Positions 7,828 to 12,536 of a stretch of 12,536 nt of DNA are shown here, one piece after another (positions within the stretch are counted from its first letter, which is position 1; each line of letters starts with the position of its first letter). The translations under genes and the position numbers were made by a program. The notes beneath the pieces are model-generated. The model did not search any database. It was not told where the DNA came from and saw only the letters and a program-made list of their open reading frames with translations. The stretch comes from a virus (lineage: Duplodnaviria > Heunggongvirae > Uroviricota > Caudoviricetes), in the IMG/VR virus record IMGVR_UViG_2751185956_000013; one strand, 5' to 3'.

Positions 7828-8731
7828 GTGCGCCCCCTGTGCGAATACGTCCGGCAAAAAAGCAAACGTGATCCCGCGCCAGAATGCGGCGGGCTTCCTG
7901 CTCAGTCTCTGCGGCGATATGGTGAATTTTGGCGGTAATTGTCGGCATATCGCGGCGAACTGCTGCGATAATCCAGATAAATTGCGGTTTTTGGGTAGGG
8001 GTAGTAGCCAGCATAGCGGCAGCCTCTGATTCATGGTTTTGAGAACCACCACCGGAAACGCCAATTTCGCTGGTGGTGAACTGTACAGGGTTGGCGTAAC
8101 CGGGAATCAGAGAAACCGGCGCGGATTGCTCCGCCCCCATACAGTCCACCATTGAACAGGTGTAACTGCGCGGCACAAAAAAACACGCATGGCGCGTGTT
8201 GTGCGCTCTGATAATTACCGGGACGCCAATCCCGACACCAGATTTTGCTGGTGCGCTATAACCATAAACCGGGTTGGCGATAGTCGGCAAGCCCTTTTTT
8301 ATGGACTCCAGAAACTCACCTTCGCGCGTGCGCGTACTGTTGCATAAATTCCCTGCATCTAGTGGTGATGTCAGAAAAATCTTCCCGCCTCGTGTAGTGA
8401 TGATGGGAAAATCTTCCTCGCGTAGTGACCCCCAATAAATCTTCGTGCGCGTACTGGTCTCGAAACTCTCCTCGTCACCACGACGAGAAAATGAGGAGCT
8501 GGCATTAGCTGGCACTGTTATGCCAGCTTCGCATTCATGCGCGTGCGTACTTGTCCCGAAAACACCAAGATTTGTAAAGATCTGGCGGTGGCAAATGTCA
8601 GGTTTTGACAGGTTCCAAACGTCGCTATTTGTCGCAATCTGGCGGCGGGCTGCTTTGCTCCAGACGTTAACATTTGCATACATCAGGCCAGCCAGGGGAA
8701 AGGCTTTATTCTGGATGGCGGCATTAAGCAT
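7820..8731 (-). CDS. hypothetical protein (303 aa) containing a degenerate tandem DNA repeat tract
   Basis: Long open frame with GGGGG RBS 7 nt upstream of ATG 8729-8731; start overlaps the AntA-type gene stop (ATGCTTAAT). No family recognised. The central part coincides with the repeat tract at 8311-8490, so the gene model is uncertain. Confidence 0.45.
   Translation of the reverse strand: MLNAAIQNKAFPLAGLMYANVNVWSKAARRQIATNSDVWNLSKPDICHRQIFTNLGVFGTSTHAHECEAGITVPANASSSFSRRGDEESFETSTRTKIYWGSLREEDFPIITTRGGKIFLTSPLDAGNLCNSTRTREGEFLESIKKGLPTIANPVYGYSAPAKSGVGIGVPVIIRAHNTRHACFFVPRSYTCSMVDCMGAEQSAPVSLIPGYANPVQFTTSEIGVSGGGSQNHESEAAAMLATTPTQKPQFIWIIAAVRRDMPTITAKIHHIAAETEQEARRILARDHVCFFAGRIRTGGAHA
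8311..8490. repeat. degenerate tandem repeat tract, about 6 units of 26-33 bp
   Basis: Plus-strand units beginning at 8311, 8344, 8374, 8407, 8435 and 8462, e.g. GAAAAATCTTCCCGCCTCGTGTAGTGATGATGG, GAAAATCTTCCTCGCGTAGTGACCCCCA, ATAAATCTTCGTGCGCGTACTGGTCTC. The GCGCGTACTG core recurs at 8330-8339 and 8447-8456. Unit lengths differ by non-multiples of 3, so copies are not in a constant frame of the 303-aa ORF. Confidence 0.45.
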
Positions 8732-9569: not shown

Positions 9570-10004
9570 TTAGGCGGCGGTGAGATTGTCCGGGTATAGG
9601 TTGAGAATGTCGGCAATTTCAGGCTGAGAAAGTCCCTGATAGCCGCCAGCGTCGGCGTTATGGTTCACAAGCCGAATAACTTTTAGAACGTCACCGCGCC
9701 CGGTAAAGCGATAGCGTAAATGTGACCCTATCCCGTCGGGGTTCTTTTCGTCTATACGCTCAAGCTGAATATCAAGCCTGCGCTCTAACTCGCTGGCGTA
9801 GTTCCTTCCAGATGAAAGGCGGCAATATCGCAGAATGTCGTTTTCTGTCCATCCCTCTACGCCAGTACGCAGCATATAGACGCGGGCGCGGTGTTTCTTT
9901 GGGGTTCGCTTAGGTACTTGTACCGGGCTGGTGGTCGGCGTAATATCAGACGTGCGAATATCTGAGTTAGCCGCCTGCTGTACGGGGCGGTTTTTCTTTT
10001 TCAT
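9570..10004 (-). CDS. hypothetical protein (144 aa), basic N-terminus
   Basis: ORF MKKKNRPVQQAANSDIRTSDITPTTSPVQVPKRTPKKHRARVYMLRTG...; its ATG overlaps the AlpA stop (TAATG). No family recognised. Confidence 0.5.
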   Translation of the reverse strand: MKKKNRPVQQAANSDIRTSDITPTTSPVQVPKRTPKKHRARVYMLRTGVEGWTENDILRYCRLSSGRNYASELERRLDIQLERIDEKNPDGIGSHLRYRFTGRGDVLKVIRLVNHNADAGGYQGLSQPEIADILNLYPDNLTAA

Positions 10005-10207
10005 TACGCCACCTTTCCCCGGCGCTCCGCCAGCCAGTTATTAATCTCTACCGCATCAAAGGCGGTAATCTTCTCCCCCAGCTTTACCGGGCGCGGTAGC
10101 GAGCCGCTGCGAACTTTGCGATCAATGGTTGAAACACTAACGCCCAGCAATTCAGCAAGGCGGAAGCGTCTGATATAGCCTTTTGTAGGGATAGTGTCGA
10201 TGTTCAT
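10004..10207 (-). CDS. alpA: AlpA-family phage transcriptional regulator / excisionase-like HTH protein (67 aa)
   Basis: Translation RRFRLAELLGVSVSTIDRKVRSGSLPRPVKLGEKITAFDAVEINNWLAERR matches the AlpA/CP4-57 regulatory family pattern (L..vS.sTI.R.v..G.FP.PvKlG.r...W...ei..Wl). Located one gene away from the integrase, as in CP4-57-type islands. Confidence 0.75.
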   Translation of the reverse strand: MNIDTIPTKGYIRRFRLAELLGVSVSTIDRKVRSGSLPRPVKLGEKITAFDAVEINNWLAERRGKVA

Positions 10208-10259
10208 GATTCCCGTAACCTCTTAGCGGTAGTTGTTGCTTCGTTACGAGAAATCTAGC

Positions 10260-10273
10260 TGTATAGATATACA
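10260..10273. promoter_or_regulatory. dyad-symmetric operator-like site upstream of alpA
   Basis: TGTATAGATATACA: 6-bp arms TGTATA / TATACA around a 2-bp centre, in the 106-bp gap between the cargo-gene terminator and the alpA start. No convincing -35/-10 pair could be assigned by eye. Confidence 0.3.
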
Positions 10274-10302
10274 ATGAAAAGGTACTGTAATTTTGCAGTA
10301 CC
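10274..10302 (-). terminator. putative rho-independent terminator of the 316-aa cargo gene
   Basis: Perfect 7-bp inverted repeat GGTACTG (10281-10287) / CAGTACC (10296-10302) with an 8-nt loop, 11 nt after the stop at 10314-10316 and followed on the minus strand by TTTTCATT. Confidence 0.45.
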
Positions 10303-10313
10303 TCTATAGCAAG

Positions 10314-11264
10314 TTAACTATCCACTTTGCCATTTGCCGCAGATCGCAGCTGTTTAAGAATTACATCTTCATTAGTTATCATAAGTGGTGGAACTTCGTC
10401 TAAATGACGAACAAGACAGTCACGCCACTTCTCAGGGCTTATTTCTTTCCTTACTCCCCTGCATTCATTTGGATACTTACTAAGTATATAAATTGCAGAT
10501 TTTAATAGTTTCTCCCTATTGACTGCGTACCGTTCGGCACGTTTATTAACTTTTAGCGTATTTATATCATTGGATAACTTGTTTGCGGGTGGTTTGTGCA
10601 TGGGTCTGTCATAAATATATTTTCCTCCATTTATAAGAAGATTGTATTCATAGTCAGTTATATACATTTTATTTCGGCTTATTTCATACCAGCCGTCAAT
10701 ATAAAAAGCTCCGATTTCATAATTATTCGATTTGCTAAACTCGTCACATCTCGGAGGCGTCAGTTCGCATACGGAGATCTCCCAATCATCCCATTCTGAT
10801 AGCTCCCGCTCATCGTTATCTATGAACGCAGACGGAATTGCTAATAGACCGTTCCATCTTTCGATATCTCTTTCATCCTTCCCAACATTGTATCGCTCTA
10901 TAACTGAGAAATGTTCTGATTTGTATGAAAACCTCATAAAATACATATGGTTATCGCTATTTTTATAATCAAGCGGTGATAAGCCATATGATTCGAGATT
11001 ATCTGCCTCATTGCTCAGATTAAGAAGATAATTCTCATGTGCTGCTTTTGTATCTATATGAAAAATACTATCTGTTTCAACTTTAAGTAATTCTGGGTCG
11101 GCATCTTCATTTTTGGGGTAATGGTAAAACAATTCAATAGGTGGAATTTTTATACATATTTCTAAAACCCCAATTGCTGCATAGTGTATTAAATCGGATA
11201 CTTCACATCCGGCCAGTTTGGCTGCTTTATCCAAAGAATAATATTTATGCGCAGGTAATTTCAT
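10314..11264 (-). CDS. hypothetical protein (316 aa), AT-rich orphan cargo gene between integrase and alpA
   Basis: Clean 951-bp ORF starting 18 nt after the integrase stop, with GAGAGGAAAG RBS region and its own terminator. G+C about 35% in two 60-nt samples I counted (10561-10620, 10981-11040) versus about 57% in an integrase sample (12001-12060). Acidic, Tyr/Trp-rich protein; no catalytic motif recognised. Confidence 0.7.
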   Translation of the reverse strand: MKLPAHKYYSLDKAAKLAGCEVSDLIHYAAIGVLEICIKIPPIELFYHYPKNEDADPELLKVETDSIFHIDTKAAHENYLLNLSNEADNLESYGLSPLDYKNSDNHMYFMRFSYKSEHFSVIERYNVGKDERDIERWNGLLAIPSAFIDNDERELSEWDDWEISVCELTPPRCDEFSKSNNYEIGAFYIDGWYEISRNKMYITDYEYNLLINGGKYIYDRPMHKPPANKLSNDINTLKVNKRAERYAVNREKLLKSAIYILSKYPNECRGVRKEISPEKWRDCLVRHLDEVPPLMITNEDVILKQLRSAANGKVDS

Positions 11265-11282
11265 TATGAATCTTTCCTCTCA

Positions 11283-12536
11283 TCATGCTCTGATTGGCGT
11301 TACGTTGTAGTCTTTTCCGCTTTCCAGTGCCACCAGCAAATCACACCACTGCGCCAGCGCCGCTTTACGCTCATCAAAATACTGGTGACGGTTATAGATA
11401 CCTTCCACGCCTTTAATTTTGTGATTAAGGCATCTTTCTGCGACTACCGGATCAACGCCCAGCGCTGCTAAATGAGTACGTGCGGTGCGTCGGAAGTCGT
11501 GAATCGTGAAATTAGGCACATCCGGCATTTCAGCGCGAACCTTAGCCAGTGCTACGGGTAAAGTGCTTTCCTGAATATGTGGGATCATTCTGTTTTGCAT
11601 CTTCCTGGCTGGAAGCACCCATGCGCTGTTGCATGAGAACGTTTTAAGCTCTCTCAGCCATTCGACGGCTGGCGGTGCTAATGGGATGTCTATAGCGTCG
11701 CCGTTTTTGCTGCGTTCCTCTGGTAAATGCCATACGGCTTTATCAAAATCGAACTCCTCCCAGCGGGCGGCGCATAACTCCATTTTGCGGACGCATAACG
11801 CTAACAGTAATTTGAACGTGATTTCGTTCTGACGGCTGAATCCCTTAGCCGTGCGCATAGCCTGAAACAGTCGGATTAGTTCGCCACGTGTTAACCAGCG
11901 GTCGCGGGAAACTTCTTTCCCTCCGGCGTCTGCCACCTCAAAGGCTGAACACGGGTTAATCTCCAGTGCGTGCCGCTTAATGCCGTAGTCAAATATGCGG
12001 CGTGTCCAGCGCAGAACGTCCGTTGCTATGGTCGGCGCTCCACGGTCAACAATACTTTTCAGCATGTCGTCGATATGGCGCGGCTTCACGTCCTCCACCT
12101 TCATGCTGCCAATGCATGGGTTTATATCTTTGTCGATACGGCGGCGGAGTATATCGGGGTGCTTCCAGCGCGGGAGGATCTGACGCTCAAAGTATTCAGC
12201 GGCAAGCTCTGAAACGCGCATAGCGTTCTTCTCTGCTTCCATCTTCGCCAGTGCTTCGGTTTTGCGCTTCTGCTTCTCTCCTGCAACGTCATAGCCCAGC
12301 GCAACGCGAGCCGATAGCTCTTTGGCTGTCTCTCTGGCCTTTGATAGTGATAGCTCGGCATATGAGCCAATCAGCATGGCGCGGGGTTTCCCTGCGAATT
12401 TATAGCGGAATCGCCAGACGGGGGTCTGGTAGTTTTCGCGGTATGAAAGATAAAGCCCGTTACCGTCAGAGCGTCCCTCGAATCGCTCCCCGGCCTTTAT
12501 CCATGCGCGGATCTGCATGTCTGTGAGTTTTGGCAT
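11283..12536 (-). CDS. int: tyrosine-type site-specific integrase, P4-like (417 aa)
   Basis: Full ORF with ATG exactly at the window edge (12534-12536) and TGA at 11283-11285. Arm-binding-type N-terminus (GLYLSYRENYQTPVWRFRYKFAGKP) and catalytic-domain motifs HDFRRTARTHL (H-x-x-R) and GIYNRHQY (tyrosine nucleophile region). Confidence 0.9.
   Translation of the reverse strand: MPKLTDMQIRAWIKAGERFEGRSDGNGLYLSYRENYQTPVWRFRYKFAGKPRAMLIGSYAELSLSKARETAKELSARVALGYDVAGEKQKRKTEALAKMEAEKNAMRVSELAAEYFERQILPRWKHPDILRRRIDKDINPCIGSMKVEDVKPRHIDDMLKSIVDRGAPTIATDVLRWTRRIFDYGIKRHALEINPCSAFEVADAGGKEVSRDRWLTRGELIRLFQAMRTAKGFSRQNEITFKLLLALCVRKMELCAARWEEFDFDKAVWHLPEERSKNGDAIDIPLAPPAVEWLRELKTFSCNSAWVLPARKMQNRMIPHIQESTLPVALAKVRAEMPDVPNFTIHDFRRTARTHLAALGVDPVVAERCLNHKIKGVEGIYNRHQYFDERKAALAQWCDLLVALESGKDYNVTPIRA

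What the first reader, a model, noticed from the sequence alone, without database searches (positions are those of the whole stretch)
10314..11264. AT-rich orphan 316-aa gene in the integrase-alpA cargo slot: candidate uncharacterised defence or accessory system
This gene is compositionally foreign (about 35% G+C against about 57% in the adjacent integrase), is a single insulated unit with its own terminator, and occupies the integrase-proximal variable slot of P4-family islands, a position where anti-phage and other accessory genes are reported to accumulate. The protein is acidic and Tyr/Trp-rich with no catalytic motif I can recognise; the N-terminal YSLDKAAKLAGCEVSDLIHYAAIGVLE may be HTH-like, which is my inference only.
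Basis: partly seen in the sequence, partly recalled or inferred. Interest (0 to 1): 0.8.

Follow-up and report, generated by a model that had tools for sequence, protein, structure and literature searches.

The report
Hypervariable phage-satellite gene beside integrase
This is a real, AT-rich 316-codon gene sitting directly after the integrase of a phage-satellite island; it is not an orphan but belongs to a large, unannotated, fast-evolving protein family found only in that one slot, and it is a plausible but untested phage-interaction (defence or helper-sensing) factor.

Summary
The ORF (10314-11264, minus strand, 316 aa), its low G+C (0.36 against 0.53 in int), a 3' hairpin terminator and an N-terminal winged-helix-like unit are all confirmed. 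"Orphan" and "insulated unit" are not.

- **Family.** It has 47 close clusters and 640 clusters in an exhaustive profile search. All are unannotated, with no Pfam, NCBIfam, PADLOC or PDB sequence match and no significant Foldseek match.
- **Transcription.** The gene starts 18 bp after int with no promoter-like site, so it is probably co-transcribed with int.
- **Position.** In every locus examined, across about 12 Enterobacterales genera, several integration sites and at least three integrase types, it lies int→gene→alpA (or Bro-N)→replicase. It is absent from the phage and plasmid collections.
- **Slot content.** In E. coli the slot always holds one small low-GC gene. Six allele groups cover 322 genomes, and none is a recognisable defence system.
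- **Cassette behaviour.** The allele moves between diverged island backbones and evolves fast in its middle domain.

Best reading (about 0.4): a non-enzymatic, satellite-specific factor that binds a phage component, acting as an anti-phage or helper-interference cassette in the known PICI 5' accessory region. Main rival (about 0.25): a helper-sensing gatekeeper of alpA. No phenotype was tested.

The parts
11283..12536 (-). Tyrosine integrase of the island (417 aa), immediately upstream and co-oriented
   Evidence: Pfam Arm-DNA-bind_3, Phage_int_M and Phage_integrase; annotated integrase next to yicC in L001
11265..11282 (-). 18-bp int-to-gene junction with a GAGGA Shine-Dalgarno at 11275-11279. 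The int-alpA RNA motif that fills this gap in related islands is missing here.
   Evidence: Sequence; gaps of 93-141 bp holding the motif in related loci; Rfam RF02996 hits in L005, L007-L010 and L019 but not in the window
10314..11264 (-). The 316-aa gene (stop codon included); low G+C (0.363)
   Evidence: intact homologues at 30-97% identity in many genera
11130..11264 (-). Residues 1-45: conserved N-terminal winged-helix-like unit (strand 8-10, helices 11-18 and 22-30, strand 36-39); A14 and D24 nearly invariant
10620..11129 (-). Residues 46-215: variable, acidic, beta-rich middle region. The only conserved islands are GLW-type (~139) and DLxIT-type (~199-203) motifs. Most amino-acid differences between near-identical alleles fall here.
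10545..10619 (-). Residues 216-240: predicted disordered linker (pLDDT below 50)
10317..10544 (-). Residues 241-316: strongly conserved, basic C-terminal helical domain (20 of the 21 invariant columns of alignment A1). It is shared at 70-80% identity by alleles whose first two-thirds are unrelated.
   Evidence: present in 119 of 5426 E. coli genomes
10278..10305 (-). Hairpin followed by a T-rich tail: putative intrinsic terminator separating the gene from alpA
   Evidence: z = -3.2; equivalent hairpins after most other alleles; not called by the consensus scan
10260..10273 (-). Perfect 14-bp palindrome TGTATA-TC-TATACA, 12 nt upstream of the conserved alpA leader; a possible operator of uncertain significance
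   Evidence: 59 of 2000 shuffles do as well; only 2 of 8 alleles have a comparable palindrome
10208..10247 (-). About 40 bp conserved leader directly upstream of the alpA ATG (GTAAC...GTTAC); right-hand boundary of the exchangeable cassette
10004..10207 (-). alpA (67 aa), the regulator gene that follows the slot
   Evidence: Pfam Phage_AlpA and HTH_17; role of AlpA in Gram-negative PICIs from PMC6092414 and PMC11773190
10137..11336 (.). Approximate tract that is about 98% identical in islands whose flanks are only 74-90% identical: the unit exchanged between island backbones
   Evidence: segment identities and 60-bp sliding identity against L035

Best explanation
The gene is the occupant of the 5' accessory slot (between int and alpA) of a PICI-type phage satellite integrated between yicC and dinD. 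It encodes a soluble, acidic protein with no detectable enzymatic domain and three modules: an N-terminal MerR/excisionase-like winged-helix unit, a hypervariable beta-rich middle domain, and a conserved basic three-helix C-terminal domain. I infer that it is made together with integrase while the island is quiescent. I infer that its variable middle domain recognises a phage-encoded component, from the helper or from a competing phage. I infer that it interferes with that phage by binding, not by catalysis, with the conserved ends providing nucleic-acid binding, oligomerisation or coupling to the island. Alleles are swapped between islands as a cassette and diversify quickly, as expected in an arms race. 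SHOWN: position, family, architecture, cassette exchange, fast protein evolution. INFERRED: co-transcription with int, phage recognition, interference by binding.
For: Island type: int, alpA, AntA, P4-family primase plus C4/isrK RNAs. Literature places PICI accessory and immune genes in exactly this slot (PMC10085698; PMC11364771). Variable content with sharp conserved boundaries: the end of int on one side, and 41 bp upstream of alpA or just inside alpA on the other. The same allele at about 98% identity sits in backbones that are only 74-90% identical. Codon differences between those alleles are 11 nonsynonymous to 4-5 synonymous, against 35 to 157 in int, and most fall at residues 56-169. 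Low G+C in all slot occupants, 0.36-0.43. Modular recombination inside the gene: the C-terminal domain is 70-80% identical while the remainder is unrelated. The slot is dispensable in some islands: L022 has none, and EcCICFT073 has alpA as ORF2 (PMC6092414). That fits an accessory gene better than a core gene. No catalytic or known domain in the query or in 122 diverse relatives, and no invariant residues in the middle domain. A precedent for defence by binding in PICIs is Tai (PMC11364771).
Against: There is no phenotype. No PADLOC model matches the query or 122 relatives. The family was seen only in the int-proximal slot of satellites, in every locus examined. It is absent from 50,697 phage records, and the only hit among 72,556 plasmid records is a 4.9-Mb record that is probably a mislabelled chromosome. 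Defence genes usually also occur in other contexts. The slot never held a recognisable defence system, and its size is constant at about 0.85-1.1 kb, unlike P4-type hotspots. Two slot families with no detectable overall sequence similarity share one architecture, which suggests a dedicated role tied to satellite biology. No effector domain is evident. The helix expected to contact DNA lacks basic residues.
Confidence: 0.4

Rival explanations
1. Helper-sensing gatekeeper of island induction, a functional analogue of SaPI Stl. The protein holds alpA off through the terminator and promoter region that travels with it in the cassette, and it releases control when its variable middle domain binds a helper-phage protein. 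Allele diversity would then set helper specificity.
For: The gene sits directly upstream of alpA in every locus. About 65 bp of allele-specific non-coding DNA, lying between the gene and a conserved alpA leader, is co-inherited with it. DNA-binding-like modules sit at both ends: a MerR/Xis-like fold and a basic C-terminal domain. The family is exclusive to satellites. A 14-bp perfect palindrome lies where an alpA promoter would be expected. The literature states that how helpers induce alpA, and whether Gram-negative PICIs have a repressor, is unclear (PMC6092414).
Against: Some islands lack the gene. EcCICFT073 (alpA is its ORF2) and EcCIMP1 (only a tiny unrelated gene in the slot) are still helper-inducible (PMC6092414 and PMC11773190), and L022 has no slot gene. 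Six of eight alleles have no palindrome beyond chance. The island already carries a P4-type C4/isrK immunity RNA system. The gene is co-oriented with alpA, not divergent as stl is. The putative recognition helix is not basic.
Confidence: 0.25
2. Another accessory function unrelated to blocking phage or inducing the island. Examples are a regulator of host genes (as PerC-type island regulators are), an anti-defence factor that helps the helper or the satellite, or a factor for competition between satellites that use the same attachment site.
For: HTH-like modules. PICIs carry host-directed regulators: a PerC-family gene is in this window, and a PICI-encoded putative transcriptional repressor that silences virulence genes is reported in the abstract of PMC11773190. 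There is exactly one copy per genome, always chromosomal.
Against: Nothing specific points to this. Rapid diversification and cassette exchange are more typical of conflict genes than of host regulators.
Confidence: 0.2
3. Integrase accessory factor. The Xis-like N-terminal unit binds att DNA or Int and modulates the direction or timing of integration and excision.
Against: Integrases 91-96% identical to each other are paired with unrelated alleles, and the same allele is paired with integrases only 82-90% identical. There is therefore no co-variation with int. AlpA is required for excision in a related PICI (PMC11773190). The protein is five times the size of an excisionase.
Confidence: 0.08
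4. A decaying or non-functional remnant.
For: A raised nonsynonymous-to-synonymous ratio between close alleles.
Against: Full-length intact ORFs persist at 30-60% identity across many genera, with 21 invariant columns in A1. Structure predictions are confident.
Confidence: 0.02

Closest known systems
PICI 5'-end accessory or immune genes (Fillol-Salom et al. 2022, Cell, as cited in PMC11364771; also PMC10085698)
   Same: Same element type and same location, between int and the alpA regulator. Single genes or small units of unknown family that vary between related islands.
   Different: No phenotype is known for this family. I could not compare sequences because that paper is not held. Here the slot holds one architectural class, not a mixed repertoire.
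Tai (tail assembly inhibition) proteins of PICIs, P4-like satellites and phages (PMC11364771)
   Same: Satellite-borne, single-protein, non-enzymatic immunity that is proposed to bind a phage structural protein. Diverse alleles were missed by DefenseFinder and PADLOC when first found.
   Different: In PICIs, Tai lies downstream of pri, and most homologues are in phages. This family is int-proximal and absent from the phage collection. No sequences were compared.
SaPI Stl / PICI Rpr master repressors (as described in PMC6092414)
   Same: A gene next to int in a phage satellite, with an HTH-like N-terminus followed by a highly divergent remainder. The rival model works like Stl.
   Different: Co-oriented with the regulated genes, not divergent. 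Absent from some inducible islands. No sequence similarity was tested, and the operator evidence is weak.
MerR / excisionase (HTH_17) winged-helix domains
   Different: No Pfam HTH_17 or MerR match. The second helix lacks the usual basic residues and carries an invariant Asp.
P2/P4 defence hotspots (Rousset et al. 2022, PMC9122126)
   Same: An integrase-proximal variable region of a satellite with conserved flanks and cassette-like exchange.
   Different: P4-like satellites are defined by the psu-delta-sid operon (PMC10085698), which this island lacks. From memory, P4 hotspots hold many different known systems of varied size; here the slot holds one small gene of one class.

Membership tests
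Described or candidate anti-phage defence systems (PADLOC-DB v2.0.0, 2023) | HMM match to a component of a listed system | tested here: not met
   No hit at E<=1 for the protein and none at E<=0.001 for 122 diverse relatives
PICI 5' accessory or immune region gene | Lies between int and the regulator (alpA) of a PICI-type island | tested here: met
   int 11283-12536, gene 10314-11264, alpA 10004-10207, P4-family primase 3669-6167; definition in PMC10085698
PICI 5' accessory or immune region gene | Content of the region varies among closely related islands | tested here: met
   Six allele groups in E. coli islands whose int is 82-96% identical
PICI 5' accessory or immune region gene | Confers resistance to phages when expressed | not testable with these tools
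   Needs plating assays
PICI 5' accessory or immune region gene | Sequence identity to one of the systems validated by Fillol-Salom et al. 2022 (from memory, DefenseFinder 'FS_' models) | not testable with these tools
   The paper is not held; text searches for the model names were uninformative
P4-like satellite hotspot cargo | Island carries the psu-delta-sid operon | tested here: not met
   None annotated in the near-identical island L001 (window and L001 are 99% identical over most of their length); definition in PMC10085698
P4-like satellite hotspot cargo | P4-type primase and CI (C4) immunity RNA | tested here: met
   Primase domains; C4 at 8069-8156 and isrK at 8178-8254
MerR / excisionase (HTH_17) winged-helix domain | Strand-helix-helix-strand winged-helix fold | tested here: met
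MerR / excisionase (HTH_17) winged-helix domain | Match to the Pfam family models | tested here: not met
   No Pfam hit at E<=0.1 and none in 122 relatives
MerR / excisionase (HTH_17) winged-helix domain | Basic DNA-contacting recognition helix and DNA binding | tested here: inconclusive
   The family consensus CExxDLxHWAxIG has an invariant Asp and no Arg or Lys. Binding itself is not testable here.
Stl/Rpr-type satellite master repressor | Transcribed divergently from the operon it represses | tested here: not met
   All genes from int to the primase are on the same strand
Stl/Rpr-type satellite master repressor | Present in all inducible islands of the lineage | tested here: not met
   L022 has no gene in the slot; EcCICFT073 has alpA as ORF2, and EcCIMP1 has only a tiny unrelated gene
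Stl/Rpr-type satellite master repressor | Cognate operator next to the regulated promoter | tested here: inconclusive
   A palindrome stands out in 2 of 8 alleles only
Stl/Rpr-type satellite master repressor | Derepression by binding a helper-phage protein | not testable with these tools
   Needs genetics or biochemistry

The most novel reading that the evidence does not exclude
The int-alpA slot of enterobacterial PICIs is not a general cargo bay. It is a dedicated locus for one architectural class of hypervariable proteins (winged helix, variable beta domain, three-helix bundle) that act as the satellite's phage-recognition determinant. This could be the long-sought link by which Gram-negative PICIs sense their helper and gate alpA. 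In most islands the Rfam 'int-alpA' RNA would then be the cis-acting leader of this gene, not a free-standing small RNA.
Probability: 0.2. Interest if true: 0.85.

Novelty: new variant of a known kind. Interest (0 to 1): 0.55.

Why it matters
Phage satellites shape which phages can grow in E. coli and its relatives, and they move defence and virulence genes. A family of at least 640 sequence clusters with no Pfam, PADLOC or PDB sequence counterpart and no significant fold match is confined to one position in these elements, and it evolves and recombines like a conflict gene. If it blocks phages, it is a new non-enzymatic immunity family carried by about 3% of complete E. coli genomes. If it gates alpA, it addresses the open question of how helper phages induce Gram-negative PICIs (PMC6092414). 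Either way, natural domain-swapped alleles are available for specificity experiments. The work also suggests a role for the int-alpA RNA motif, whose function is unknown to my knowledge.

Tried and rejected
- **Homology.** Pfam, NCBIfam, PHROGs and PADLOC on the protein: nothing, apart from a PHROG of unknown function at E = 0.02 over residues 1-44. Pfam and PADLOC on 122 diverse relatives: nothing.
- **PDB by sequence profile.** Only chance hits to AT-rich Plasmodium peroxiredoxins.
- **Operator hypothesis.** Allele-specific palindromes upstream of the alpA leader beat chance in only 2 of 8 alleles, so the idea is not supported as a general feature.
- **One superfamily for all slot occupants.** The L019-type family aligns with the query superfamily only over the N-terminal 43 residues (hhalign E = 5.6e-4, probability 30%). 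Single-sequence comparisons for the L018 and L021 types were null. Homology is unproven, although the L019-type model has the same architecture.
- **Excisionase or Int partner.** Rejected as the leading idea because alleles do not co-vary with int.
- **Known PICI genes in this slot.** EcCIMP1_002 is a tiny unrelated protein.
- **Searches that did not reach far.** The genome-contig scan returned only 4 loci because its peptide patterns were narrow. The second word-indexed protein search added only 2 new proteins.
- **Literature.** No hit for the protein accession. Searches for DefenseFinder 'FS_' names gave noise.

Full report
**1. Observation**

The ORF is real and lies at the stated coordinates: 10314..11264, minus strand, ATG start, 316 aa.

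- **Composition.** Its G+C is 0.363 (GC3 0.30), against 0.529 (GC3 0.572) for the adjacent integrase. Sliding windows read 0.33-0.39 across the gene and 0.49-0.55 on both sides.
- **Protein properties.** It is acidic (pI 5.3) and Tyr-rich (22 of 316). It is not notably Trp-rich (5 of 316).
- **3' end.** A hairpin 9 nt after the stop (window 10278-10305) folds at -12.8 to -14.3 kcal/mol (z = -3.2) and is followed by a T-rich tail. The simple terminator scan did not call it.
- **5' end.** The ATG is 18 bp after the int stop codon and is preceded by GAGGA. No promoter-like site was found on that strand. The gene is therefore probably co-transcribed with int and is insulated only at its 3' end.

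**2. The element**

The window is 99% identical over most of its length to an island in E. coli O6:H16 M9682-C1 that lies between yicC and dinD.

- **Gene order.** int, this gene, alpA, a 144-aa gene, an AntA-family gene, an Ash/Icd-like gene, small genes, a P4-family primase, SSB, PerC, a pRiA4b-ORF3-like gene and an island-borne dinD copy.
- **Regulatory RNAs.** Rfam finds isrK (8178-8254) and C4 antisense RNA (8069-8156) on the minus strand. These are the families that PMC10111431 uses to detect P4 CI and seqA relatives.
- **Classification.** No psu, delta or sid gene is annotated. By gene content this is a PICI-type satellite and not a P4-like one (definitions in PMC10085698).

**3. Not an orphan**

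- A word-indexed search found 47 clusters, all in Enterobacterales and all named 'hypothetical'.
- An exhaustive profile search of 1.84 billion representatives found 640 clusters at E<=0.001 and 155 at E<=1e-10, nearly all of 270-350 aa.
- None of 122 diverse members matches any Pfam or PADLOC model.
- The query has no NCBIfam hit and no meaningful PHROG hit.
- It has no relative among PDB sequences.

**4. Architecture**

The AlphaFold model (pLDDT 79, pTM 0.63) has four parts:

- **N-terminal unit.** Strand-helix-helix-strand at residues 8-39.
- **Middle region.** A long helix (72-91) followed by a beta-rich domain (109-203).
- **Linker.** Disordered, residues 216-240.
- **C-terminal domain.** Helical, residues 241-311.

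Foldseek found nothing significant in the PDB or BFVD for the remainder of the protein.

Conservation across the family has four features:

- It is concentrated in residues 1-40, a GLW-type motif near 139, a DLxIT-type motif near 199 and the C-terminal domain.
- Twenty of the 21 invariant columns of the close family lie in residues 244-311.
- By my count from the translation, the C-terminal domain is net basic.
- No conserved residues suggestive of catalysis occur in the middle domain.

**5. Genomic position**

In every locus I could examine, the gene lies immediately downstream of an integrase, on the same strand, and upstream of alpA (or a Bro-N gene) and a replicase.

- **Taxa.** E. coli, Salmonella (an island with capsid and protease genes), Enterobacter (embedded among prophage late genes), Pantoea (two species), Kosakonia, Intestinirhabdus, Tatumella, an Enterobacteriaceae MAG, Rosenbergiella, Yersinia, Klebsiella and an unassigned metagenome contig.
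- **Diversity of backbones.** These loci span several chromosomal sites and at least three integrase types with 30% identity or less to each other. Replicases are of the Toprim/D5-type primase, D5_N-only, DUF927 and AAA_25 kinds.
- **Absence elsewhere.** tblastn found no match in 50,697 phage records. The only 'plasmid' hit is a 4.9-Mb record that is probably a mislabelled chromosome.

**6. What occupies the slot in related islands**

A total of 441 of 5426 complete E. coli genomes match the int and/or alpA flanks, and 41 carry this allele.

Sampling 19 related islands always showed a single low-GC 'hypothetical' gene of 216-321 aa, with two exceptions: one island at tRNA-Thr with no annotated slot gene (L022) and one degraded island (L023) (G+C 0.36-0.43).

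| Allele group | Family | Genomes |
|---|---|---|
| Query type | query superfamily | 41 |
| L008 type | query superfamily | 76 |
| L009/L011 type | query superfamily | 37 |
| L010/L017 type | query superfamily | 33 |
| L018 type (216 aa) | third family | 111 |
| L019/L016 type (293 aa) | second family | 24 |

The first four groups match the broad family profile at E 1e-41 to 1e-58. No recognisable defence system was seen, and the cassette span is constant at about 0.85-1.1 kb.

The 293-aa family has no detectable sequence similarity to the query beyond a weak in-register N-terminal alignment (hhalign E = 5.6e-4, probability 30%). It occupies the same slot in Providencia and even in Neptunomonas. 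Its model (pLDDT 86) has the same layout of N-terminal unit, beta-rich middle and C-terminal three-helix bundle.

**7. Cassette behaviour**

- **Boundaries.** Homology between islands breaks within the last ~10 bp of int on one side. On the other side it breaks 41 bp upstream of the alpA ATG or just inside alpA. The gene, its terminator and about 65 bp of non-coding DNA therefore travel together.
- **Exchange between backbones.** The query allele plus these flanks is about 98% identical in islands whose int is 82-90% identical and whose alpA and orf144 are 74-85% identical.
- **Recombination inside the gene.** Some alleles share only the C-terminal domain and downstream DNA, which shows recombination at the domain boundary.
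- **Rate of change.** Between near-identical alleles there are 11 nonsynonymous and 4-5 synonymous codon differences, against 35 and 157 in int. Most of the slot changes fall at residues 56-169. My rough estimate is a dN/dS near 0.7 for this gene and below 0.1 for int; the counts are small.

**8. Interpretation**

*Shown:* a real, conserved-by-position, hypervariable and exchangeable gene of an unannotated family, specific to the int-proximal slot of PICI-type satellites, with no detectable enzymatic domain.

*Inferred:*

- **Leading reading (about 0.4).** It is expressed with int in the quiescent island, recognises a phage component through its variable middle domain and interferes by binding. 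This is an anti-phage or helper-interference cassette of the known PICI 5' accessory region (PMC11364771; PMC10085698).
- **Main rival (about 0.25).** It is an Stl-like gatekeeper of alpA. This is attractive because the family is satellite-exclusive and always abuts alpA with co-inherited non-coding DNA, and because the literature leaves open how helpers induce alpA (PMC6092414). It is weakened by inducible islands that lack the gene, by the weak operator evidence and by the C4/isrK system already present.
- **Minor rivals.** Another accessory role (0.2), an integrase accessory factor (0.08; no co-variation with int) and a decaying remnant (0.02).

**9. Comparison with what is known, and novelty**

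The kind of thing is known: a variable accessory or immune gene at the 5' end of a PICI. What appears undescribed is the family itself, its confinement to this slot, the monopoly of one architecture there, and its relation to the int-alpA RNA motif.

I could not compare it with the systems validated by Fillol-Salom et al. 2022, and that is the main caveat on novelty. I rate it as a new variant of a known kind, with interest 0.55.

Noticed in passing
L008:2769-2835, L009:2789-2855, L010:2815-2881, L019:1569-1635, L007:7914-7980, L005:7914-7979; absent at window 11265-11282: The Rfam 'int-alpA' RNA motif (RF02996, classed as an sRNA) lies between int and the slot gene in six related islands. It ends 18-21 nt before the slot gene's ATG whichever protein family occupies the slot, and its conserved 3' tail ends in AAGG. 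The fixed spacing suggests a cis-acting leader of the slot gene. The window, L002, L021 and L024-L026 lack it, and there the gene starts 4-18 bp after int in the window and in L024-L026.
   Followed up: partly
window 8069-8156 and 8178-8254, minus strand: C4 antisense RNA (76.7 bits) and isrK (81.1 bits) sit inside the ORF 7820-8731, which has a Phage_ASH domain and is annotated Icd-like in L001. PMC10111431 uses these Rfam families to detect P4 CI and seqA relatives. The island therefore seems to carry an RNA-based immunity circuit.
   Followed up: partly
window 1-825, minus strand; L001:26870-27694 and L001:28036-28860: The island ends with its own dinD copy next to the chromosomal dinD, which suggests integration into dinD with replacement of the interrupted end. 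The 274-aa product has a Bro-N domain. It matches the PADLOC candidate model PDC-S13 at E = 3e-126 and a 'Specificity_I' model at E = 1e-121.
   Followed up: no
L018:1566-2686 (also L037-L039): The commonest E. coli slot allele (111 genomes, all at least 99% identical) is a 216-aa protein of a third, unannotated family. Its start overlaps the int stop codon, and it is followed by about 470 bp of very AT-rich DNA (G+C 0.34) with no annotated gene before alpA.
   Followed up: partly
window 10208-10247, minus strand: About 40 bp directly upstream of alpA are conserved across islands with different slot alleles and contain the inverted repeat GTAAC...GTTAC. This may be the alpA 5' leader or a regulator-binding site.
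   Followed up: no
window 10260-10273, minus strand: A perfect 14-bp palindrome, TGTATA-TC-TATACA, lies between the terminator and the alpA leader (59 of 2000 shuffles do as well). L010 has ACAAT-AG-ATTGT at the same distance from the leader, but six other alleles have nothing comparable.
   Followed up: yes
window 2688-3356 against L001: The window and the otherwise 99%-identical island L001 differ by a replaced segment around the SSB gene, downstream of the primase. This is the region that PMC11364771 describes as a further PICI accessory hotspot.
   Followed up: no
L002:1-16963: The Enterobacter homologue lies in a satellite inserted among prophage late genes (terminase, portal, Mu_F-like), consistent with the 'helper-embedded PICI' configuration of PMC10111431. 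A reverse-transcriptase gene (RVT_1) lies at the far end of that locus.
   Followed up: no
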